From IMG/VR virus record IMGVR_UViG_3300005326_000040, positions 32,001-96,000 of that record: a stretch of 64,000 nt of DNA, one strand, 5' to 3'. A program made the translations under genes and the position numbers. The notes below the pieces were generated by a model. That model saw only the letters and a list, made by a program, of their open reading frames with translations, was not told the DNA's origin and did not search any database. Position 1 is the first letter of the stretch; the number at the start of each line of letters is the position of its first letter. This document shows, piece after piece, positions 37,917 to 50,105 of this stretch. Source of the DNA: a virus (Duplodnaviria; Caudoviricetes).

Positions 37917-38017
37917 AGCGCAGTGACCATATATTGCACTATATCGTCACTCGGTCTGCGGTGTCGTGTAGCGTAGCGTAGGCCAGCGCAGTGACCATAT
38001 ATTGCACTATATGGTCA
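37917..38017. promoter_or_regulatory. Two directly repeated palindromes (operator-like)
   Basis: TGACCATATA-TTGCAC-TATAT(C/G)GTCA at 37924 and 37992, 68 bp apart. Confidence 0.7.
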
Positions 38018-38059
38018 AACCGCCTAACCCTGCCGTTACCTTTTGCGCGACGCTTCCCA

Positions 38060-38068
38060 TGGTATCAT
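38060..38068 (+). promoter_or_regulatory. Extended -10 promoter for the rightward early region
   Basis: TGnTATCAT upstream of a structured leader. Confidence 0.5.
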
Positions 38069-38353
38069 TAAAGTATAAGGTAATGGTTCGGGGGATAATC
38101 CCCTTCCGAAACCTTATGGTTCCCCGATGTTTCCCCTAACGTTATCCAGGGGTTACTAGTGGGTTCTCCGGGCGTTCTAGAGCGCTGGCAATAAACCAGT
38201 AAGGAACCGATCTGCCCCTAGTTAGGGGTTATTAGGGTTCCGAGAACAACCTAACGGCGCAAAGCCTGGGGAATCTAACGGTAACCTTTGGGCAATCAAA
38301 GGGAAACCAAAAGCCTGACCCAGCAGGATAACTGGGATTCCACGGAGTTTACA

Positions 38354-39055
38354 ATGTCGTTCGCCAAGTCGTTCGCCGCTCGCGTTCTCTCCGCTGCTTC
38401 CGCTCAGCAGACCGCTCCGGCTCCGCAGGTTGCTCCGGTTGCCCAGGCCGCTCCGGCAATTCCGGGAACCGCTGCTCCGGTCATCCCTGGAATGGCGCCT
38501 TCGGTTCCGGTGGCGCCCCAGGCCACCGTCACGCTGGAAGCCATCAGGGCGGTCGTTGCGTCGGCTTACCCGACGCTCAACGCCGGACAGCACGACGCCA
38601 TCACCACCAACATCGCTCGGCTGACCGGGTTGCCGGTCACCGGGGCTCCGCCGAAGAACCTCGGCGGCTACGCCGCCGCAGCGGCGTTCGTCCTCAAGTC
38701 CATCCCTGGCGGGCTGGAGTTGCTCCAGGCCCAGGAGAAGAAGGGGTTGGGAAAGCGCGTGACCGACTTCCACACGGGCGTCACCGTCTGGAAGCAGGCT
38801 GATGTGCTTCGCCACGATGCTGAGACTGGGCTGGTCGTGCAGGGAAAGGAAGGGAACGCCTATCGGTCGGTGACCTTCACCGATGGCAGGGACAAGTCTG
38901 GGCAAACGCTGCGCAAGGCTCTCGTGAGTGCCCTGGCTCCCAAGGGAGCCGTCGAGACGTTGTTGGCGGCTCTGTGCCTCGCCCGGTCGTTTGGCATCAC
39001 CGATGAGATGATCCAGGAACTCGTCACCCGCAGCGCCGCCATCATGTCCAAGTAG
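38354..39055 (+). CDS. Hypothetical protein, first rightward gene (A/P-rich N-terminal linker)
   Basis: GGAG RBS then MSFAKSF. High-GC codon usage. Confidence 0.8.
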   Translation: MSFAKSFAARVLSAASAQQTAPAPQVAPVAQAAPAIPGTAAPVIPGMAPSVPVAPQATVTLEAIRAVVASAYPTLNAGQHDAITTNIARLTGLPVTGAPPKNLGGYAAAAAFVLKSIPGGLELLQAQEKKGLGKRVTDFHTGVTVWKQADVLRHDAETGLVVQGKEGNAYRSVTFTDGRDKSGQTLRKALVSALAPKGAVETLLAALCLARSFGITDEMIQELVTRSAAIMSK

Positions 39056-39080
39056 TTCCCTTCTACGTACCCACCTATTC

Positions 39081-39136
39081 GCCCCTGGTACTGACCCTCA
39101 AAGGGTTGGTGCCAGGGGCACCCTTTTACCCGTTAA
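39081..39136 (+). repeat. Intergenic hairpin repeat H0
   Basis: GCCCCTGGTACTGACCCT-CAA-AGGGTTGGTGCCAGGGGC, followed by ...GTTAA. Confidence 0.75.
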
Positions 39137-39255
39137 AGCCCCTGTAGTTCAAGGGGTTTTAACCACTACCCCTGCGGGGGATTGGAGGGACGACTCAAGG
39201 TGAGTCATGCTCCCTCATTGGGATTCAATAGGGTGTAAACCCGCAGGAGATTACC

Positions 39256-39903
39256 ATGAATAGTTCGATTACCCGCAAGGCTTTCATCGCGATGCTCAAT
39301 ACGTTCGTTCGTCAGATGGAAGGCGTCATTGACGCCTGGAACGCCATTGAACGGATGAACCATATCTGCGCCGACGTTGAGGCGCAGATCTTCAGCAACA
39401 ATAGTGACCGCTACCACGACGGTAGCGTGACCACAACTGATTACAACATCCTTCTGCGAGGGCAGAAGGTGGGGTACGTTCGGGTGCGGGAAACTCACGA
39501 ATATCGGGAGGAAAGGGAGGTCTTTGTCTCCTTCACCGAGCTTTCCCCTCGCGAATGGCGGGAGCGGAAGGCTTCACAGCGGGCTGCGGCCCGCCGTCAT
39601 CAGGAGGCGTACGACGCCTCCCGTGAAGTCGTCGCTGCCGCCCTGGCGGCGGGGCAGTCCGTCCGTGTCCAAGATGGACAGAAAGGGGGGGTTTTCGTGA
39701 TTGGCGACCACAGGGTCGCCGCTGTGCGGCTTCTCACCTCGGCGTATTTCGGTTTCTCTGAGGAAGAGGCGAATCGTCGCCTCGGGGAGGCTTGGTACAA
39801 GGGTAGTGACAGTTGGGGGGGATTCACATTCACCCTCAACCCCGAGTTGGCACATCGCCAGTTCGGTCGTCCTACCAGCATCGAATGGGAGATGACGGCC
39901 TGA
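39256..39903 (+). CDS. Hypothetical protein
   Basis: 215 aa, AGGAG RBS. Confidence 0.8.
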   Translation: MNSSITRKAFIAMLNTFVRQMEGVIDAWNAIERMNHICADVEAQIFSNNSDRYHDGSVTTTDYNILLRGQKVGYVRVRETHEYREEREVFVSFTELSPREWRERKASQRAAARRHQEAYDASREVVAAALAAGQSVRVQDGQKGGVFVIGDHRVAAVRLLTSAYFGFSEEEANRRLGEAWYKGSDSWGGFTFTLNPELAHRQFGRPTSIEWEMTA

Positions 39904-39919
39904 GGGCCTCTTTCCCAGT

Positions 39920-39980
39920 CGCCGATGTTTGCCCCTTTCTCAGCCTTCGGCTGGGGGAGGGGCGTTCTTTCGGCGGTTAA
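39920..39980 (+). repeat. Intergenic hairpin repeat H1
   Basis: CGCCGA-TGTTT-GCCCC-stem/loop-GGGGC-GTTCT-TTCGGCG-GTTAA, with G.U pairs in the upper stem. Confidence 0.92.
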
Positions 39981-40097
39981 AAGCAACCGCCTCTGAGGGG
40001 CGGTATACAAGTACCCTGACGTGAACGAAGGCTTTCCCTACCTTTGGTGAATACCCTATGGGGTAAAGGGGAGACGGTAACATTATCCCACCGACAA

Positions 40098-40173
40098 GCG
40101 GATATGTAGCACAATGTGGAACCTAATGAGTTATTGGCATTAGGGATGGGTTCGATTCCCATATGTGCTGCCG
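40098..40173 (+). ncRNA. Degenerate tRNA-like element
   Basis: T arm ATGGG-TTCGATT-CCCAT, 7-bp stem CCTAATG/CATTAGG with a 9-nt loop, imperfect acceptor stem and D arm. Confidence 0.55.
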
Positions 40174-40257
40174 AGTGAAGATAATTCTTTCATTCGATTG
40201 TGGAGCATTCACAAGTAACAGGGTGTGAGTGGATTGAATCTCCAATCCAACTCTAAC

Positions 40258-40363
40258 TGGGTTTAGCTCAAGGGTAGAGCAACTTATGTTTCAAGGTCCT
40301 TCCTAACCAGCGGGACACCGAAACATAGGGATATATCGAGTTCAAGTCTCGATAGCCCAGCCA
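40258..40363 (+). ncRNA. tRNA-like RNA with greatly extended anticodon arm
   Basis: D arm GCTC-AAGGGTA-GAGC, 10-bp stem CTTATGTTTC/GAAACATAGG enclosing a GTCC/GGAC hairpin, T arm ATCGAG-TTCAAGT-CTCGAT, 3' AGCCCA-G-CCA. Confidence 0.75.
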
Positions 40364-40479
40364 AGTTAGTTGTCCTTTTCCTCTTCGGGGGATTAGCCCA
40401 TAGGGACGTGGGCACACCAGCCGTTATGTGGACGGTTGGAATGATTGTTGGGGTAATCCCCGTTGAAGGAGAATGAATC

Positions 40480-40755
40480 ATGGCACGTCGTAATGCTGCT
40501 CGTCGGGCTCGCAATTCAAAGAGGTCTGCCCTCGTGACTGCCGCTATTCAGATGGCTTGCAATGCGGGCTCCGGGCTTCAACTCTTCGTCGGAGCCTCCG
40601 TCGAGGAGTGTGAGCATGATTACGCGAAGAGCCTCGGTGCGGAAGCTGCAAGGCTCCGCTCGGGGCTCTTGGGATACGGGCTCAATATGGCGGCATTCCG
40701 CCATGAACCGCCCGTCGTTCAAGACTACGTGAGGAACTACATCCTCCTCGCATAG
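40480..40755 (+). CDS. Hypothetical protein
   Basis: 91 aa, AAGGAG RBS, stop directly before H2. Confidence 0.75.
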   Translation: MARRNAARRARNSKRSALVTAAIQMACNAGSGLQLFVGASVEECEHDYAKSLGAEAARLRSGLLGYGLNMAAFRHEPPVVQDYVRNYILLA

Positions 40756-40760
40756 TTTTG

Positions 40761-40823
40761 CCGCCGACGTTTGCCCCTGTATCGGCCTTCGGGCCGGTAT
40801 GGGGGCGTTCTTTCGGCGGTTAA
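40761..40823 (+). repeat. Intergenic hairpin repeat H2
   Basis: Consensus arms with a cUUCGg tetraloop. Confidence 0.92.
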
Positions 40824-40867
40824 CAAGCTCCAGTGGGGTAACCAGTCCCCCATGAAAGGATATTACC

Positions 40868-41086
40868 ATGTACAAGTCCAATTCATTCGGCTCTCTCGGC
40901 GCGTCCCTTGGCGTGGCGAAGGTGCGGGAGCTTTCCCGCGCACTTCATGTCGCCGACTCCCGCCGTGAGGCGGCGAATGTGCAGAAGCTCATCGAGGCGA
41001 AAGCCTCTGAGATGCGTCGTTCGCTGAAGAATCCCGAGAGCTATGCTCTCGTGATCAATGCCCTCAAGAAGGAGGGCAAGCTGTAG
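40868..41086 (+). CDS. Hypothetical protein
   Basis: 72 aa, AAAGGA RBS. Confidence 0.75.
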   Translation: MYKSNSFGSLGASLGVAKVRELSRALHVADSRREAANVQKLIEAKASEMRRSLKNPESYALVINALKKEGKL

Positions 41087-41095
41087 AGCGGGATT

Positions 41096-41158
41096 CCGCC
41101 GATGTTTGCCCCTGCTTTGGCCTTCGGGCCATTGTGGGGGCGTTCTTTCGGCGGTTAA
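41096..41158 (+). repeat. Intergenic hairpin repeat H3
   Basis: Consensus arms, UUCG loop, abuts the AGGAGG RBS. Confidence 0.92.
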
Positions 41159-41170
41159 AGGAGGCGCAAT

Positions 41171-41458
41171 ATGAGTGCGCTCGAACGCAAGAAGGCCGCG
41201 AAGCTGGAAGCGCGGCGAAAGAAGTGTATTCTCTACGAGACAGCCAAGAAGGTTGTCTATAGCGCTGGCACTAAACAGGTGTCAGCAATGGTAAGCCGTC
41301 CGATGGCTTGCCCTCACTCGGACTTCACATACGACTTGTGGGAAGTCGTTGTTTTCAACAGCGACAATTCCACCTGTCGTGCCAGTTGCTATCTTCCAAA
41401 GGAGGAGGCTCTTGCTCTTGCTCGTAATTGGGCAATTGAGTTTGGAGCCATTCTTTGA
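41171..41458 (+). CDS. Hypothetical protein
   Basis: 95 aa. Confidence 0.75.
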   Translation: MSALERKKAAKLEARRKKCILYETAKKVVYSAGTKQVSAMVSRPMACPHSDFTYDLWEVVVFNSDNSTCRASCYLPKEEALALARNWAIEFGAIL

Positions 41459-41461
41459 TAC

Positions 41462-41524
41462 CCGCCGATGTTCGCCCCTTTCTCAGCCATTCTGGCTGGG
41501 GGAGGGGCCTTCTATCGGCGGTTA
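41462..41524 (+). repeat. Intergenic hairpin repeat H4
   Basis: Consensus arms. Upper stem nearly identical to H1. Confidence 0.92.
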
Positions 41525-41528
41525 AGAA

Positions 41529-41666
41529 TGCCAGATATCGTCCCCACTTCCTTTTCCCGCAAGGATTAGGGGGTCAAGTTGAAGAAGGACAAACCGGGAT
41601 GAACAATCCTGGAGGGACGGAGAGCTTTCGAGTTCTCAGGTGGTTCAATTCCATCATCTGGCACCA
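41529..41666 (+). ncRNA. Expanded tRNA-like RNA (138 nt)
   Basis: Acceptor GCCAGAT/ATCTGGC-A-CCA, T arm GGTGG-TTCAATT-CCATC, variable-arm hairpin GAGAGCT-TTCG-AGTTCTC, GTCCC/GGGAC long-range stem. Confidence 0.75.
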
Positions 41667-41762
41667 AAGCAAGTGTGTATCTTTAGGAGTTTGGGATTGT
41701 TTTTGCTCCGGAGTTCGGGAGCAAAGCATAATCATTCTCCTAAAGAACACAAAGGAGGAGAG

Positions 41763-41999
41763 ATGCTGACGAAAACGAATGCAAGAAGGTTGGTGGAGAT
41801 TGTTGCGCAGATAAAAGACTTGTCTGCCAAGAACGGCATGATCGATCAACGCCACGAAGATGTGGCGAAGATTCTGGGGACGTATAAGGAGGATGAATAT
41901 CCTTCTGAAGAAGACCCCGAGTGGCGCAAGAACAACGACGAGATTGGCAATCTCTACAACGAGCTTCTGTCCATCATCAACACAAGTCTCCCCCTGTAG
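41763..41999 (+). CDS. Hypothetical protein
   Basis: 78 aa, AGGAGG RBS. Confidence 0.75.
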   Translation: MLTKTNARRLVEIVAQIKDLSAKNGMIDQRHEDVAKILGTYKEDEYPSEEDPEWRKNNDEIGNLYNELLSIINTSLPL

Positions 42000-42005
42000 A
42001 GACTT

Positions 42006-42067
42006 CCGCCGATTACCCGCCCCTTTTCAGCCTTCGGGCTGAGGAGGGGCGCCCTTTCGGCGGTTAA
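42006..42067 (+). repeat. Intergenic hairpin repeat H5
   Basis: Consensus arms, UUCG loop. Confidence 0.92.
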
Positions 42068-42109
42068 AAGCTACACCCTATCCCAAGTATGTTCTCGTTC
42101 TCTCCATTA

Positions 42110-42118
42110 TGGTATGGT
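42110..42118 (+). promoter_or_regulatory. Second extended -10 promoter-like element
   Basis: TGnTATGGT followed by a leader similar to the one at 38060. Confidence 0.45.
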
Positions 42119-42343
42119 TTTCAGTAGGGGGTAAAACATAAACCCCTTCTGGAAACTCTACCTCAACAATTCCCGATGTTTCTTTGTGTAGGGTTGTTGC
42201 CTACACGAGAGATAAAAGGATAGTTGATAGTATGACCCCCACCAAAGGGTCATTTATTAATGGGTAGAGGGTGAGAACAAACCTGGAGTGGAATTATCGA
42301 ATCGCCTGATAGGCGGCCTGGGGGCGGAACAACAACTCGGAGA

Positions 42344-42886
42344 ATGATCATGAAGACGACTTCCAAGATGAACGCGCTTCTGAATGCGGCCTGTGACCAT
42401 GCGAAGGCGCGTGGTCGTTTCCCCATGTACTTGGACCCGGTTAGGTTCGAGTTTGACGGGGACAGTGACTGTTACTTCGCCGCAAGAGCGAGGGACTTCA
42501 CGTTCTCCAAAGGGGCCGCAGCGATCATTGGTGCCGACATGATCGTCACCATGTTCGCGGGGGAGGAGCAGTGGGGAATGTTCTTCTCTACTCGTGAGTT
42601 GCTTGACCCCGAAACGCTCAAGTGGCTCAAGGATTCCGACCACTTGTTGGAAGACGAGTGGAAAGCAGCGGAGTCCTTGGCGAAGAAGGCCGAGCAACTC
42701 GCCTCTCAGGCGCGAGTTTCGGCCTTGAAGGCTCGTGAAGCGAGCCTCAGTGCCAACGACTTCCAGGTGGTCATGGTGGAGATTGAGCGAAAGCCCATCT
42801 TCGCCGCGCTGCCTGAGACAGTGGAAGTTCATCCCGTCTTCAGTCAGATCAACCGAGAGGTTGATTTCGATTGCAACTGGGATTGA
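42344..42886 (+). CDS. Hypothetical protein
   Basis: 180 aa, GGAG RBS. Confidence 0.8.
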   Translation: MIMKTTSKMNALLNAACDHAKARGRFPMYLDPVRFEFDGDSDCYFAARARDFTFSKGAAAIIGADMIVTMFAGEEQWGMFFSTRELLDPETLKWLKDSDHLLEDEWKAAESLAKKAEQLASQARVSALKAREASLSANDFQVVMVEIERKPIFAALPETVEVHPVFSQINREVDFDCNWD

Positions 42887-42896
42887 ACCTGTTTCT

Positions 42897-42961
42897 CCGC
42901 CGATTGTTTGCCCCTGCTTTCGCCTTTCGAGGCGATTGAGGGGCATTCTTTCGGCGGTTAA
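42897..42961 (+). repeat. Intergenic hairpin repeat H6
   Basis: Consensus arms, UUCG loop. Confidence 0.92.
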
Positions 42962-42983
42962 CAAGCAACCACTGGAGGCTGCT

Positions 42984-43232
42984 ATGAAGAAGCTGTGGTT
43001 TTGGGTGCATAGTGCGCCCACGGGGTTCGTCAAGGATGCTGATCGTCATGTTGTTGTGATGGCGATTGCTACCGAGGACGAGATTTATGGCCCTGGTATC
43101 GGTCTCGACAACTGGCACGAGACTGGTATCGAGGGCACTCTTGATGGTTGCCTCGCGACCCTCAAGAAGAATCATCCATGCGTCAACATGGAGACAATCC
43201 TCGGCGGCTGTTTGGGTTACGCCGTCGAATAA
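42984..43232 (+). CDS. Hypothetical protein
   Basis: 82 aa, GGAGG RBS. Confidence 0.75.
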   Translation: MKKLWFWVHSAPTGFVKDADRHVVVMAIATEDEIYGPGIGLDNWHETGIEGTLDGCLATLKKNHPCVNMETILGGCLGYAVE

Positions 43233-43540
43233 TAGTGGCTGATAAGTTGCTATCAAGAAAGGGCAGGAACGTATAGGAGTAACAATCCTAGTTCGAGTCT
43301 CCCCATAGGAAAGATAGGGCAAAGCCCACGTTGGACAATCTTTCCGCAGGTTTAGGCGAGCCAACCTATGGATGACTATAAACGGTTATAAGGCTCAGGG
43401 TCCAATGTTACTAGGTTAGGAAGGAGACCCAATGTAACGATAGCGGGTCTGGAGACAACTGAATAGCCCACCCTTCGGCAAGGTGGGCAATCTTAAGGGT
43501 ATGACTATTATGGTTGTATCCTTAAGATTGCCCAATTAGC
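43233..43540 (+). ncRNA. Candidate ~300-nt multi-stem ncRNA
   Basis: ORF-free on the + strand. Stems CCATAGG/CCTATGG, GGAAAGAT/ATCTTTCC, AGTAACA/TGTTACT, AGACCC/GGGTCT, and a 22-bp terminal hairpin. Confidence 0.55.
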
Positions 43541-43568
43541 CCCAACATATACCTGAGAGGAAAGAGTC

Positions 43569-43925
43569 ATGATCAAGGTGTGTTTCAACGAAGTGCCTGC
43601 CAATGTGGCGCAGTTCGTGGCGAAGAACATCCAGTCGGCGCAAATCGTGCGAGCGGCACGACCGGCGCCGATTGCGGCAGGAATGAAGCATTCGCCCAAT
43701 GTCATTGGAGGACGCCGTTACGGCAAGTACTCCAGGGGCGATAAGAACCGTAACCTCCGTAAGTCGGTGACGACCTATGGAGGACACACCTTCAAAGAGT
43801 TGATGGTGTTGATGGGCAACTCCGTGCCGATCAGCCAACTTCTCGCCATGAAGGAGACGAGGGAGTATTACGTCGGTGTTCGTCACGAATCGTGGAAGAA
43901 GTTCCGCGACCATCAGTGGAGGTAG
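43569..43925 (+). CDS. Hypothetical basic protein
   Basis: 118 aa, GAGG RBS. Confidence 0.75.
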   Translation: MIKVCFNEVPANVAQFVAKNIQSAQIVRAARPAPIAAGMKHSPNVIGGRRYGKYSRGDKNRNLRKSVTTYGGHTFKELMVLMGNSVPISQLLAMKETREYYVGVRHESWKKFRDHQWR

Positions 43926-43929
43926 TTCG

Positions 43930-44106
43930 ATGGAAAGGTATCAGTGGGAAGCCTTGGCGGAGACGTTGTTGATGCTCTCTCGTGCTCAGACCATGAGCGG
44001 TTTGAATTACGAACGGGTTCGACAGTTCGTCCGTGGAGAGAGGCCGCTGTCGCGGCGAATTCGCCGGTCGATCAACATCCTCTCCAGAACCGTATTCGAT
44101 AAGTAG
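43930..44106 (+). CDS. Hypothetical protein (possible small DNA-binding)
   Basis: 58 aa, Arg-rich, stop directly before H7. Confidence 0.6.
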   Translation: MERYQWEALAETLLMLSRAQTMSGLNYERVRQFVRGERPLSRRIRRSINILSRTVFDK

Positions 44107-44167
44107 TTCTGTTCGCCCCTGCTTTGGCCCTTCGGGGCCATTGTGGGGGCGATTCATTGGCAGTTAA
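44107..44167 (+). repeat. Intergenic hairpin repeat H7
   Basis: Upper stem nearly identical to H3. Lower stem diverged, TTAA retained. Confidence 0.85.
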
Positions 44168-44178
44168 GGAGAGGTCCA

Positions 44179-44346
44179 ATGGAGAAGCTTCTTCAAGTGA
44201 TGAGGTCGAGGAAGTGCTCCTATACGGAGTACATTGAATTGAGGCTCGCCGTATTGGCCGACATCGGCAAGGGCGGCGACGAACTGGTAGCAAAAATCTT
44301 TCGGGGGTTGGGGATTCCGATTCCTGTGGACCCTCGTTACAACTAG
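44179..44346 (+). CDS. Hypothetical protein
   Basis: 55 aa, AGGAG RBS. Confidence 0.65.
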   Translation: MEKLLQVMRSRKCSYTEYIELRLAVLADIGKGGDELVAKIFRGLGIPIPVDPRYN

Positions 44347-44378
44347 GGTTCCTTCTCGCCGAAAGAAAGGAACACGTC

Positions 44379-44678
44379 ATGCTCTTTGAAGTGCGACCGC
44401 CGAATTCAATGAAGAACGTCATGGTGACGTTTGAATCGAGTACTCGGCGGGAAACAGCTGCCGCAAATGCTGCTGTTGAATCAGTTCTCAAAGATGAGGA
44501 CTTGCAGCCTTTTCATCAGATGGGCTGTGACCCTTTCTACGGGAACGACGCTCCCGGCATTCATGGTTGGGAAATCTGGGTTGACGGGGAGAACATTGCG
44601 CGGGTGGCGGCGCTTCTTCCAAAGATCCAGACCATCTACGAGAAGGAGTATATCCTTCGGGACTGGATGGAGGATTGA
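44379..44678 (+). CDS. Hypothetical protein
   Basis: 99 aa, AAAGGA RBS. Confidence 0.7.
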   Translation: MLFEVRPPNSMKNVMVTFESSTRRETAAANAAVESVLKDEDLQPFHQMGCDPFYGNDAPGIHGWEIWVDGENIARVAALLPKIQTIYEKEYILRDWMED

Positions 44679-44681
44679 ATT

Positions 44682-44710
44682 GGCAGGTTCGATTCCTATC
44701 CGTTCGGCCA
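44682..44710 (+). other. Isolated tRNA 3' half
   Basis: GCAGG-TTCGATT-CCTAT-CCGTTCG-G-CCA directly after a stop codon and before an RBS. No matching 5' half seen. Confidence 0.65.
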
Positions 44711-44726
44711 AGGAAGGAGATGAATC

Positions 44727-45038
44727 ATGAAGGTTCGTATGATGATTCTGGTTGATGGACAGTATCGTTGGGTCGATAGCAAATTCAAAAGCAGCTTGGA
44801 AGCTGCTCAGGAGGTGAGTATTCCCTATATCGCTGGTGCATCTCGTGGTGAGGAGGGGTGCATCGAAGTCACTGGCAACAAGGTGACTTTCGTCGGCTAT
44901 CCCGTCAACGTTCTTATCAGTGAGGATGAGAACCCGATCACCATGGTCATGTCTGTGAGGGAGCAGAACATGGTCAAGGAGTCGTATCCTTGCACGCCCG
45001 AAGAAGTCAACGAGATGAGGGCCGCCAACAAGGAATAA
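44727..45038 (+). CDS. Hypothetical protein, paralog of 54215-54526
   Basis: Shared WVDS and GEEGCIEV motifs. Confidence 0.8.
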   Translation: MKVRMMILVDGQYRWVDSKFKSSLEAAQEVSIPYIAGASRGEEGCIEVTGNKVTFVGYPVNVLISEDENPITMVMSVREQNMVKESYPCTPEEVNEMRAANKE

Positions 45039-45042
45039 CCGT

Positions 45043-45204
45043 ATGGAGCAATACGTTCACGACTTCGGCATCATCTGGCAAGTGATGTGTAAGACCTACA
45101 TTGCCCACATTCTTTTTGTGTGGGTGATGGTGGTGTTCACAGTTGAGAAGTGGCAGGAGTATCAGGAGGCCAGGGTGATGGTTCTCCGAAAGCTCCATAA
45201 GTAA
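45043..45204 (+). CDS. Small membrane protein
   Basis: 53-aa ORF read by eye (MEQYVHDFGIIWQ...), one hydrophobic segment. Confidence 0.5.
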   Translation: MEQYVHDFGIIWQVMCKTYIAHILFVWVMVVFTVEKWQEYQEARVMVLRKLHK

Positions 45205-45217
45205 GGGAGAAGAGAGA

Positions 45218-45520
45218 ATGAAGAAGGTTGTGTTCGCATTCATCCTCGCCGCTATCGTTAGTGGTTGTGCCAAACCGGAGCCGAAGGTTCCTGTTGTTTC
45301 CCAGCAGCCCCAAGTGGCGCGGGTCATCTATACCGAGAAGGATTCTCCTCTCGACTATACAATCCGCGCCGAACAGGCTGTGATCGAAGGGGGTAGGACG
45401 GCGAAGCAGGCTGCCAGTCAGGCATATGATTGGGCAGCAAAGGAAGCGGAGGAGTTGGCCGACAAGGCGCGACGCGCCAAGAAGGCGGCCAAGGAAAAGA
45501 TTCACGAGATGACGGAGTGA
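45218..45520 (+). CDS. Lipoprotein
   Basis: MKKVVFAFILAAIVSGC lipobox. Confidence 0.8.
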   Translation: MKKVVFAFILAAIVSGCAKPEPKVPVVSQQPQVARVIYTEKDSPLDYTIRAEQAVIEGGRTAKQAASQAYDWAAKEAEELADKARRAKKAAKEKIHEMTE

Positions 45521-45536
45521 CGTAGTGACGTAGTGG

Positions 45537-45597
45537 ATGGTGTTCGCCCGTTATTCGGCTATAGAGCCGGGTGACGGGCGATGCTGTTTTCTTTTAA
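45537..45597 (+). repeat. Intergenic hairpin repeat H8 (subfamily B)
   Basis: About 23-bp stem with an ATAG loop and many G.U pairs. 61/62 nt identical to H10. Confidence 0.9.
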
Positions 45598-45624
45598 CGA
45601 GAGCCTTTCCCAAGGAGAAGTAAG

Positions 45625-45801
45625 ATGAGCAAGAACGAACTGATCGCGTTGGGGCTGGAAGCGCATGAAGTCGATTACATCGCCGAAGCGGTCGCCAAGA
45701 ATGGCGAAGTACTCGGCGACATCGTGCATGTGGACTTCTGCGTCAGCCCCAGGAGCGTTGGCGTGGAAACGGTGAATGAGGCGTACGACCTGGGACTGTG
45801 A
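45625..45801 (+). CDS. Hypothetical protein
   Basis: 58-aa ORF read by eye (MSKNELIALG...), AAGGAG RBS. Confidence 0.7.
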   Translation: MSKNELIALGLEAHEVDYIAEAVAKNGEVLGDIVHVDFCVSPRSVGVETVNEAYDLGL

Positions 45802-46067
45802 GGTTCGTCATGGGGTTAAATGAAGTCATCAATGGGCTGAAGCAGGGCAAGTCCTTCGAAAGGGCAGGGACGAGCACTGGTGGTGGGAAATATGTGGAAA
45901 AACTGATTGCTGTGAGTGCAATCTACTTCAAGCATCAGATCGTTGGCGCCATGAGTGGTCATGGTTGGGGAGGGTCGAGCCAGTTGGAGATCAATATCCT
46001 CAACAACGGTCGCTGGGACGAAGATGGATGGAAGGAGATTGCACCAGCCAGAGGTGAACAGTCATAA
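45798..46067 (+). CDS. Hypothetical protein
   Basis: 89 aa. Confidence 0.65.
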   Translation: MRFVMGLNEVINGLKQGKSFERAGTSTGGGKYVEKLIAVSAIYFKHQIVGAMSGHGWGGSSQLEINILNNGRWDEDGWKEIAPARGEQS

Positions 46068-50025: not shown

Positions 50026-50105
50026 GGGGCGATAAGGTATATGGGGATATCTATTAGAATGTAATAGATATCTTTTAGAAGGTTCAAATCCTTCTAGGCC
50101 CGCCA
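50026..50105 (+). ncRNA. tRNA-like element with an 11-bp perfect stem in place of the anticodon arm
   Basis: GATATCTATTA-GAATG-TAATAGATATC, T arm (TA)GAAGG-TTCAAAT-CCTTC(TA), 3' GGCCC-G-CCA, weak D arm. Confidence 0.65.

What the first reader, a model, noticed from the sequence alone, without database searches (positions are those of the whole stretch)
39904..40479. 575-nt non-coding block packed with hairpins and two tRNA-like domains
Seen in sequence: besides H1 and the tRNA-like elements at 40098 and 40258, nearly all spacer sequence can pair, for example ACCGCCTC/GGGGCGGT, TTGTG/CACAA, GGATTG/CAATCC, a UUCG hairpin near 40380, GCCCA/TGGGC and CCAGCCGT/ACGGTTGG. This is unusual in an otherwise densely coding array. 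Inference: a multi-domain ncRNA or a decaying tRNA cluster being repurposed.
Basis: partly seen in the sequence, partly recalled or inferred. Interest (0 to 1): 0.6.

Follow-up and report, generated by a model that had tools for sequence, protein, structure and literature searches.

The report
Phage spacer with two tRNA look-alikes
A 576-base gene-free gap in the early region of a 338-kb uncultured phage is not one large RNA. It is a row of separate RNA modules: a repeated hairpin, two odd tRNA-shaped genes and a folded leader, which most likely serve to cut up and stabilise a long messenger RNA.

Summary
It is a composite, not one multi-domain RNA.

- **H1 (39919-39980)** is one of seven consecutive post-stop-codon hairpins of a repeat family. 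The family shows compensatory changes and G-U pairs that fit only the + strand.
- **el1 (40108-40170)** has an intact acceptor stem and T arm, no D arm, and a 7-bp stem with a 9-nt loop. It cannot decode.
- **el2 (40258-40363)** is a complete cloverleaf ending in CCA, with 30 extra bases that zip its anticodon into a 10-bp helix. ARAGORN calls it a tRNA only once those 30 bases are removed.
- **40373-40470** is a folded leader that pairs with the next gene's ribosome-binding site.

A strict acceptor-plus-T-arm scan finds 17 such elements in the phage, all on the + strand, against 0.27 expected by chance. The spacers are no more structured than the neighbouring genes, and 40008-40100 is not structured at all. 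No relatives exist, so covariation is untestable outside H1, and RNA-seq was unavailable.

Best reading: tRNA-processing and hairpin punctuation of an early operon. el2 may instead, or also, be a spliced tRNA. Earlier notes of this scan describe related tRNA look-alikes in this genome and short-insert phage tRNAs on other DNA.

The parts
39919..39980 (+). H1: a copy of the post-stop-codon hairpin family. It has an outer stem (U/C)CGCCGA / UCGGCGG, a conserved internal loop UGUUU / GUUCUUU, a variable upper stem of about 16 bp, and ends in UUAA.
   Evidence: Four exact or near-exact 5' motif copies against 0.2 expected. Paralogues found by BLAST. The six-copy consensus fold has 22 pairs, 3 of them with compensatory double changes. 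Single-copy z is -5.12. U-G pairs exist only on the + strand. A copy sits in each of seven consecutive intergenic gaps.
39986..40004 (+). 8-bp hairpin ACCGCCUC-UGA-GGGGCGGU. Its 5' arm (AACCGCC) is also complementary to the 3' outer strand of H1 (GGCGGUU), so the pairings 1:2, 2:3 and 3:4 exclude one another.
   Evidence: Fold z is -3.89. The alternative pairing was read directly from the sequence. It is seen only at this H1 copy. Its functional meaning is inferred.
40005..40105 (+). Spacer without significant structure or a recognisable signal.
   Evidence: z is +1.22, and 176 of 200 shuffles fold as well. No convincing promoter match. The ARAGORN 'tRNA-Val with intron' model here is weak and was rejected.
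40108..40170 (+). el1: a tRNA-like RNA without a D arm. The acceptor helix is 6-8 bp: AGCACA/UGUGCU, extendable to GUAGCACA/UGUGCUGC from 40106 to 40171. An 8-nt connector AUGUGGAA follows, then a 7-bp stem CCUAAUG/CAUUAGG with a 9-nt loop, then the T arm AUGGG-UUCGAUU-CCCAU. The discriminator is G40170, followed by CC.
   Evidence: Passes the strict top-half scan. Rfam tRNA score is 15.7 bits, below the 29-bit threshold. Not called by ARAGORN in standard, intron or mitochondrial mode. Fold z is -2.29.
40172..40253 (+). Three spacer hairpins between el1 and el2, at 40172-40196, 40198-40214 and 40227-40253.
   Evidence: Fold z is -3.00. This is no more than typical for this 8-kb region. No paralogue or Rfam match.
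40258..40363 (+). el2: a tRNA-shaped gene with an encoded G73-CCA end. It has a 6-bp acceptor plus a 6-bp T stem, a normal D arm (AGCUCAAGGGUAGAGC) and the T loop UUCAAGU. Its anticodon arm is lengthened to a 10-bp helix, a 3x3 internal loop, a 4-bp helix and a 13-nt loop.
   Evidence: Passes the strict top-half scan. Fold z is -5.05. ARAGORN calls it only with the intron option and a relaxed threshold. After 30 nt are removed, the default ARAGORN calls a tRNA in 7 of 8 registers. No Rfam tRNA hit even at E <= 10.
40295..40324 (+). The 30-nt insert of el2, in ARAGORN's register. The boundaries can slide between 40290 and 40324, which changes the anticodon: UUC, UUA, UAA or GAA.
   Evidence: Its 3' end GAAAC pairs perfectly with GUUUC, which would be the 5' part of the anticodon loop and the anticodon itself.
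40373..40470 (+). Folded 5' leader of ORF 40480-40755. UCCUUU (40373-40378) pairs with the Shine-Dalgarno GAAGGA (40464-40469) and encloses four hairpins. In an alternative fold GGGGAUUA pairs with UAAUCCCC.
   Evidence: Folds (z -2.44 and -3.38). SD and start codon read. A regulatory role is inferred only.

Best explanation
The block is a transcribed spacer of a rightward early operon. It carries four independent RNA modules rather than one RNA.

1. H1 caps the upstream message. It acts either as a leaky terminator and 3' stabiliser, or as an RNase III-type site like those between phage T7 early genes.
2. el1 and el2 are tRNA-derived genes that keep only what tRNA-end enzymes need: the acceptor/T-arm stack, the T loop and a (C)CA end. 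The host's RNase P would cut at their 5' ends. RNase Z, or RNase E plus exonucleases, would trim their 3' ends. A CCA-adding enzyme, one of which the phage encodes, would finish el1.
3. These cuts release two small stable RNAs and at the same time separate the upstream and downstream messages.
4. The last 100 bases form the structured leader of the next gene and mask its ribosome-binding site.

Shown: the anatomy, the repeat family with covariation, the strand, and the enrichment of top-half elements. Inferred: every enzymatic step, and what the released RNAs then do.
For: - Non-coding block between ORFs that show a coding signature.
- H1 is a repeat with compensatory changes and + strand-only G-U pairs. 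It follows the stop codon in seven consecutive gaps.
- The strict scan (T arm NNNNG-TTCRANN-CNNNN plus a 7/7 closing helix within 140 nt) gives 17 hits on the + strand and none on the - strand. Thirty shuffled genomes average 0.27 hits. el1 and el2 are two of the 17. Others are ordinary tRNAs or further odd tRNA shapes lying between early genes.
- All helices of el1 and el2 are free of mismatches, and the T loops match consensus.
- In this phage the decoding half is what varies while the top half is kept.
- The + strand folds 36 kcal/mol better than the - strand.
- The phage encodes a CCA-adding-type nucleotidyltransferase, and many of its tRNAs lack an encoded CCA.
Against: - Co-transcription, cleavage sites and RNA stability are therefore unproven.
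- There are no relatives, so no covariation for el1, el2 or the leader. The same phage is 100% identical in two other assemblies.
- The spacer hairpins are no stronger than those in the surrounding coding sequence, so they may carry no function.
- Most gene junctions in the array need no tRNA-like element, so punctuation alone does not explain why two sit here.
- el2 keeps a full D arm and tertiary core, more than a mere cutting signal needs.
Confidence: 0.5

Rival explanations
1. el2 is a real decoding tRNA gene split by a 30-nt intron that is too short to be a ribozyme. An unknown endonuclease removes the insert and a phage RNA ligase reseals the loop, most likely giving the phage's only tRNA-Glu(UUC). 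This partly overlaps the best explanation, because end-processing would still occur.
For: - With 30 nt removed, ARAGORN at default settings calls a tRNA in 7 of 8 registers.
- The body has the D-loop G18 G19, U8, A14, an A15-U48 pair, the T-loop consensus and an encoded CCA.
- The 3' end of the insert pairs perfectly with the anticodon region, as true tRNA introns do. The chance of 5 fixed pairs is about 0.007 (my calculation).
- None of the tRNAs ARAGORN calls in this phage has a Glu anticodon.
- The same genome has a tRNA-Asn(GUU) with a 57-nt insert that leaves a textbook loop UUGUUAA.
- The phage has two PF09414 RNA-ligase-family ORFs.
- Short introns in phage tRNAs are reported for Lak megaphages (PMC6784885).
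- One narrow pattern pulls more than 113 insert-bearing tRNA-shaped genes from IMG/VR.
Against: - The splice register is undefined, giving UUC, UUA, UAA or GAA.
- Every register leaves G at position 32, which is rare in tRNAs (my knowledge). Most registers also leave a G32-C38 Watson-Crick pair that would close the loop.
- The acceptor (U1-A72, G2-C71, G3-C70, G73) looks like tRNA-Gln, not tRNA-Glu, by E. coli identity rules (my knowledge).
- There is no bulge-helix-bulge motif, and the 3' junction lies inside a perfect helix.
- The phage has no EndA, RtcB or T4 Rnl1 homologue.
- Rfam's tRNA model scores other insert-bearing phage tRNAs at 41-52 bits but does not report el2 at all.
- The insert lacks the hairpin-ACAGCAA motif shared by 40 of 115 IMG/VR cases.
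Confidence: 0.27
2. el1 and el2 are dead tRNA genes, and the other hairpins are by-products of the GC-rich, fold-prone local sequence. Only H1 is functional.
For: - Neither element is recognised by standard tRNA finders.
- el1 lacks a D arm and a 7-nt anticodon loop.
- el1's 5' strand (GUAGCACAAUG) is identical to the D-arm region of the phage's tRNA-Asp, hinting at a rearranged tRNA.
- Neighbouring coding sequence folds as well as the spacers.
- Nothing here can be shown to be conserved, because no relatives exist.
Against: - There are 46 base pairs in the two elements, none mismatched, and both T-loop consensus sequences are intact.
- The el2 insert extends the anticodon helix perfectly instead of disrupting it.
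- All 17 top-half hits lie on the transcribed strand, against 0.27 expected.
- This genome holds many further tRNA shapes with a kept top half and an altered bottom half. That points to selection on the top half rather than random decay.
Confidence: 0.17
3. The whole 576 bases form one large structured non-coding RNA of the GOLLD/ROOL kind.
For: The block as a whole folds better than shuffles (z -4.65). In that global fold, long-range pairs link its ends.
Against: - No Rfam match at gathering or E-value thresholds.
- The first module is a repeat unit that occurs alone after other genes.
- 40008-40100 is unstructured.
- The two internal tRNA-like modules would be cut out by RNase P.
- The centroid and the minimum-energy structure disagree on the long-range pairs.
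Confidence: 0.04

Closest known systems
'Enigmatic' short introns in tRNA genes of Lak megaphages (Devoto et al. 2019, PMC6784885)
   Same: el2 is a gene of a very large phage that becomes a recognisable tRNA only after a short non-ribozyme insert is removed from the anticodon loop. No splicing enzyme is known in either case.
   Different: The Lak boundaries were fixed by aligning alleles with and without the intron, and no such allele exists for el2. The el2 splice register and amino-acid identity are ambiguous, the mature loop would be atypical (G32), and the acceptor/T stack is 6+6.
Small stable RNAs C and D (species 1 and 2) in the tRNA region of phage T4 (from my knowledge, not checked here)
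   Same: They are non-decoding stable RNAs encoded among phage tRNA genes. They are thought to be matured by the host's tRNA-processing enzymes, and their function is unknown.
   Different: There is no sequence relation. el1 and el2 sit singly between protein genes of an early operon, not inside a tRNA cluster, and their processing is untested.
RNase III processing hairpins between phage T7 early genes, such as R1.1 (from my knowledge)
   Same: H1 is an irregular hairpin of about 23 bp with a conserved internal loop, placed directly after each gene of an early polycistronic array. The stems vary while the loop is conserved.
   Different: Cleavage is untested and the phage has no RNase III of its own. 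The inner stem followed by UUCUUUC also looks like a weak intrinsic terminator.
t-elements of plant mitochondria and mitochondrial tRNA punctuation (Forner et al. 2007, PMC1920247). mascRNA cut from MALAT1 is a further example (my knowledge).
   Same: These are tRNA-like acceptor/T structures with no decoding function that mark where RNase P and RNase Z cut a longer transcript.
   Different: They are known in organelles and nuclei. They have not been established for phage messenger RNAs, and no cleavage data exist here.
D-armless mitochondrial tRNAs of nematodes, and the tRNA-like domain of tmRNA (from my knowledge)
   Same: Like them, el1 has an acceptor stem stacked on a T arm, an unpaired connector containing GG in place of the D arm, and a helix where the anticodon stem would be.
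   Different: el1 has a 7-bp stem with a 9-nt loop and so no anticodon. ARAGORN's mitochondrial and tmRNA modes find nothing. There is no G3-U70 pair and no tag reading frame.

Membership tests
Canonical tRNA (Rfam RF00005) | Score at or above the 29-bit gathering threshold | tested here: not met
   el1 scores 15.7 bits (E 4.4). el2 is not reported even at E <= 10.
Canonical tRNA (Rfam RF00005) | Acceptor stem stacked on a T arm with the T-loop consensus UUCRANY | tested here: met
   Both elements pass the strict scan: 17 hits observed against 0.27 expected.
Canonical tRNA (Rfam RF00005) | 5-bp anticodon stem with a 7-nt loop, U33 and a readable anticodon | tested here: not met
   el1 has a 7-bp stem and the 9-nt loop AGUUAUUGG. 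In el2 the loop bases are locked in a 10-bp helix unless 30 nt are removed.
Canonical tRNA (Rfam RF00005) | D arm with G18 G19 | tested here: inconclusive
   el2 has it (GCUC-AAGGGUA-GAGC). el1 has no D stem, only a connector containing GG.
Archaeal/eukaryal protein-spliced tRNA intron | Bulge-helix-bulge motif, or single-stranded splice sites at 37/38 | tested here: not met
   The structure is a 10-bp helix, a symmetric 3x3 loop, a 4-bp helix and a 13-nt loop. The 3' junction lies inside a perfect helix.
Archaeal/eukaryal protein-spliced tRNA intron | Splicing endonuclease (PF01974) and RtcB-type ligase available | tested here: not met
   No PF01974 or PF01139 match in the phage at E <= 1. 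The host is unknown. Two PF09414 ligase-family ORFs exist.
Group I intron in a tRNA anticodon loop | Ribozyme core of about 200 nt or more that matches Rfam Intron_gpI | tested here: not met
   The insert is 30 nt and no Rfam ribozyme match was found.
Short 'enigmatic' phage tRNA introns (Lak type) | A phage gene recognised as a tRNA once a short anticodon-loop insert is removed | tested here: met
   ARAGORN at default settings of 8 spliced registers.
Short 'enigmatic' phage tRNA introns (Lak type) | Boundaries fixed by intron-less alleles or by a spliced RNA | not testable with these tools
   No relatives were found and read data were unavailable.
GOLLD / ROOL and other large phage ncRNAs | Match to the family covariance model | tested here: not met
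   No such hit at gathering or E-value thresholds.
T7-type RNase III processing site (for H1) | Irregular hairpin of 20 bp or more with a conserved internal loop, placed between the genes of one transcript | tested here: met
   Consensus fold, covariation and position after seven successive stop codons.
T7-type RNase III processing site (for H1) | Cleavage by RNase III | not testable with these tools
   No RNA data. The phage has no RNase III gene, so the host enzyme would be needed.
Intrinsic terminator (for H1) | GC-rich stem directly followed by a U tract | tested here: inconclusive
   The inner stem is followed by UUCUUUC, which has 5 U in 8 bases and is flagged by the scan. The tract is interrupted, and it becomes an internal loop once the outer stem forms.
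tmRNA tRNA-like domain (for el1) | G3-U70 pair, tag reading frame, detection by ARAGORN -m | tested here: not met
   No tmRNA found. Positions 3-70 are C-G or A-U depending on the register.

The most novel reading that the evidence does not exclude
The block is one node of a phage-wide RNA punctuation system. The early polycistronic message would be cut into units by host RNase III at H1 hairpins and by host tRNA-end enzymes at a set of tRNA mimics that have lost their decoding half. In addition, el2 would be matured by a protein-catalysed, non-ribozyme tRNA splicing route, using an unknown endonuclease and a phage Rnl2-family ligase, a route never shown in bacteria or their viruses.
Probability: 0.2. 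Interest if true: 0.75.

Novelty: new variant of a known kind. Interest (0 to 1): 0.45.

Why it matters
If el1 and el2 are cut out by tRNA enzymes, a bacterial virus would be organising its early messenger RNA by the 'tRNA punctuation' principle known from mitochondria. It would also be producing small tRNA-shaped RNAs that cannot decode, which could act as decoys for tRNA-targeting defences.

If el2 is spliced, it adds a case to the unexplained short introns of phage tRNAs. It also points to the phage's two RNA-ligase-family genes as candidates for part of the machinery.

As it stands the block is mainly a well-defined test object: a 576-nt transcript with predicted cut sites.

Tried and rejected
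- **Rfam.** Scans at gathering and E-value thresholds over the block and over 38-58 kb found no large ncRNA, ribozyme, riboswitch, tmRNA or Y-RNA-like family.
- **Hidden coding.** Reading TAA through (the phage has a UUA suppressor tRNA), codon periodicity, and a Pfam scan of the minus-strand ORFs were all negative.
- **Weak ARAGORN models.** The 'tRNA-Val with 31-nt intron' (40046-40172) and 'tRNA-Ser' (40385-40467) models have mismatched acceptors and were rejected.
- **el1 as a D-armless decoding tRNA or tmRNA domain.** ARAGORN -mt and -m find nothing.
- **Bulge-helix-bulge reading of the el2 insert.** It does not fit.
- **Relatives for covariation.**
  - GenBank phages.
  - IMG/VR by three proteins and two DNA patterns.
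  - JGI metagenomes by two patterns, which gave only chance hits.
  - The 5.8-billion-protein collection, which returned only the protein itself.
  - Two further assemblies of the same phage are 100% identical.
- **Antisense targets.** The el2 apical loop and the el1 loop have none in the phage beyond chance.
- **ACAGCAA family.** The el2 insert does not share the hairpin-ACAGCAA motif common in IMG/VR insert-bearing tRNAs.
- **Paralogues.** BLAST of the block against the genome finds paralogues only for H1.

Full report
**Setting.** The window is bases 32001-96000 of a 338-kb IMG/VR phage record that CheckV estimates to be 97% complete. From about 38.3 kb of the window, a long array of small + strand ORFs begins. 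None of the eight ORFs tested around the block matches Pfam or PHROGs. They are nonetheless clearly coding: GC3 is mostly 0.55-0.78 against GC2 of 0.32-0.52, and the first codon position is purine-rich. The block lies between ORF 39256-39903 and ORF 40480-40755.

- Each + frame has 7-11 stops and no codon periodicity.
- Reading TAA through opens nothing. This was worth checking because the phage carries a UUA suppressor tRNA.
- The minus-strand ORFs have no family match.

The block as a whole beats its dinucleotide shuffles, with z -4.65 on the + strand and -4.23 on the - strand. The + strand is 36 kcal/mol more stable because of G-U pairs.

Two points are overstated.
- Segment 40008-40100 folds no better than shuffles (z +1.22).
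- A sliding control shows that the block (mean z -1.9 in 150-nt windows) is not more structured than the surrounding 38-46 kb, which averages -2.6 with coding sequence included. The AT-rich genes to the left average -0.68 and the 46-63 kb stretch averages -1.12.

The plain spacer hairpins therefore carry little weight on their own. The gap is also not unique, since gaps of 344 and 682 nt follow within 3 kb.

**Module 1, H1 (39919-39980).** This is a copy of a repeat.
- The 5' motif CGCCGAYGTTTGCCCCT occurs four times against 0.2 expected.
- BLAST against the genome finds paralogues only for this part of the block.
- The 3' motif GGGGC...GTTAA marks eight copies.
- Seven consecutive intergenic gaps, from 39056 to 42887, each carry one copy just after the stop codon.
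- The six closest copies share a 22-pair consensus structure. It has an invariant outer stem CCGCCGA/UCGGCGG, a conserved internal loop, and an upper stem that varies, with three pairs changed on both sides.
- Several pairs are U-G, which would be C-A on the other strand. The element therefore works as + strand RNA.

Its shape matches the RNase III sites between phage T7 early genes (my knowledge). The inner stem followed by UUCUUUC also scores as a weak terminator. The phage has no RNase III gene of its own. I cannot separate 'processing site' from 'leaky terminator and 3' stabiliser'.

At this copy only, a second hairpin (39986-40004) follows. Its 5' arm can also pair with H1's 3' strand, which gives an attenuator-like choice of helices. 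This may be chance.

**Modules 2 and 3, the tRNA look-alikes.** I wrote a strict scan. It requires a fully paired T arm NNNNG-TTCRANN-CNNNN, followed within one base by seven bases that pair 7/7 with a segment no more than 140 nt upstream. The genome gives 17 hits, all on the + strand. Thirty first-order shuffles give 0.27 on average for both strands together. el1 (40107-40170) and el2 (40257-40360) are among the 17. The others are ordinary tRNAs or further odd tRNA shapes between early genes.

*el1:*
- The closing helix is 6-8 bp.
- An 8-nt connector (AUGUGGAA) stands where the D arm should be.
- A perfect 7-bp stem carries a 9-nt loop.
- One base links this to the T arm AUGGG-UUCGAUU-CCCAT.
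- The discriminator is G, followed by CC.
- Rfam's tRNA model gives 15.7 bits, below its 29-bit threshold.
- ARAGORN finds nothing in standard, intron, mitochondrial or tmRNA mode.

With no 7-nt loop, el1 cannot decode.

*el2:*
- It has a normal D arm, the bases of the tertiary core, a T arm and an encoded G-CCA end.
- It has a 6-bp acceptor plus a 6-bp T stem, so the usual 12-bp stack is kept.
- Thirty extra bases in the anticodon region pair GAAAC with GUUUC. The arm becomes a 10-bp helix, a 3x3 loop, a 4-bp helix and a 13-nt loop (z -5.05).

**Is el2 a split tRNA?**

*For:*
- Once 30 nt are removed, ARAGORN at default settings calls a tRNA in 7 of 8 registers.
- The phage's other tRNAs include no Glu species.
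- The same genome has a tRNA-Asn with a 57-nt insert that leaves a textbook loop.
- Lak megaphages have short tRNA introns of unknown mechanism (PMC6784885).
- ARAGORN calls most of those as insert-bearing tRNAs, and Rfam scores several of those checked at 41-52 bits.
- The phage has two RNA-ligase-family ORFs.

*Against:*
- The register is undefined, giving UUC, UUA, UAA or GAA.
- Every register leaves G32, and most leave a G32-C38 pair.
- The acceptor looks like tRNA-Gln rather than tRNA-Glu (E. coli identity rules, my knowledge).
- There is no bulge-helix-bulge motif.
- The phage has no EndA, RtcB or Rnl1.
- Rfam does not report el2 at all.
- The insert lacks the hairpin-ACAGCAA motif found in 40 of 115 IMG/VR cases, against 3 expected.

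I put splicing at about one in four.

**Module 4, the leader (40373-40470).** UCCUUU pairs with the Shine-Dalgarno GAAGGA of the next gene and encloses four hairpins. A regulatory role is inferred only.

**Synthesis.** The block is best read as a transcribed spacer with separate modules, not as one RNA. What el1, el2 and the other odd tRNA shapes of this phage share is the top half. That is the substrate of RNase P, RNase Z and the CCA-adding enzyme, and the phage encodes a nucleotidyltransferase of the CCA-adding type. The most economical mechanism is excision by these enzymes. Excision would both release small stable RNAs and cut the early message, while H1 protects or defines the upstream 3' end.

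Decay into pseudogenes is unlikely, because 46 base pairs show no mismatch and both T loops match consensus. A single GOLLD/ROOL-like RNA is not supported.

**Limits.** No relative of this phage region exists in any collection I could search, and two other assemblies of the phage are identical. Covariation is therefore available only for H1.

**Relation to earlier notes of this scan.** These notes already list the hairpin family, el2's doubled anticodon arm, other tRNA look-alikes in this genome, and short-insert phage tRNAs on other DNA. I re-derived the hairpin family and the el2 anatomy independently and tested the other points in part.

Noticed in passing
window 38000-68000 (genome 70-100 kb): A GC-rich island in a 40% GC phage. 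GC is 0.555 at genome 70-75 kb and decays to about 0.43 by 100 kb. Genes in it have GC3 of 0.55-0.78 against 0.34-0.36 in genes to the left. The early genes may be tuned to a GC-rich host's codon usage, before the phage's own tRNAs for AT-rich codons are made.
   Followed up: partly
window 38000-46000: The whole high-GC early region, coding sequence included, folds much better than its shuffles. The mean z is -2.6 in 150-nt windows, against -0.68 and -1.12 in control regions. Peaks inside ORFs include 39350-39499 (z -5.2), 41225-41374 (-6.4) and 43475-43624 (-6.7).
   Followed up: partly
IMG/VR loci L015-L127 (for example L033:6634-6734, L083, L090, L059, L054): One narrow tRNA pattern found more than 113 viral stretches holding tRNA-shaped genes with 12-58-nt inserts. 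Forty of 115 share a hairpin, often with a GUUC/GUUU loop, followed by ACAGCAA, against 3 expected by shuffling. The motif occurs in tRNAs that ARAGORN assigns to many different anticodons. Several lie in tandem in tRNA clusters.
   Followed up: partly
genome 27815-27946 (4 kb before the window) and genome 28046-28121: tRNA-Asn(GUU) with a 57-nt insert and an encoded CCA. Next to it is a tRNA with anticodon UUA, which would read the stop codon UAA.
   Followed up: partly
window 50026-50105, 44682-44712 and 41529-41663: Further tRNA-shaped elements with an intact acceptor and T arm but an altered bottom half. At 50026 a 13-bp hairpin replaces the anticodon arm.
   Followed up: partly
genome 151730-152269, 198734-199303 and 296282-296665: Two RNA-ligase-family (PF09414) ORFs and one nucleotidyltransferase ORF of the CCA-adding type (PF01743). 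This amounts to a partial RNA repair or maturation toolkit.
   Followed up: no
window 40106-40116 versus genome 27737-27747: The 5' strand of el1 (GTAGCACAATG) is identical over 11 bases to the U8-to-D-loop region of the phage's tRNA-Asp. This may hint that el1 arose by rearrangement of a tRNA gene, or it may reflect the generic D-arm consensus.
   Followed up: no
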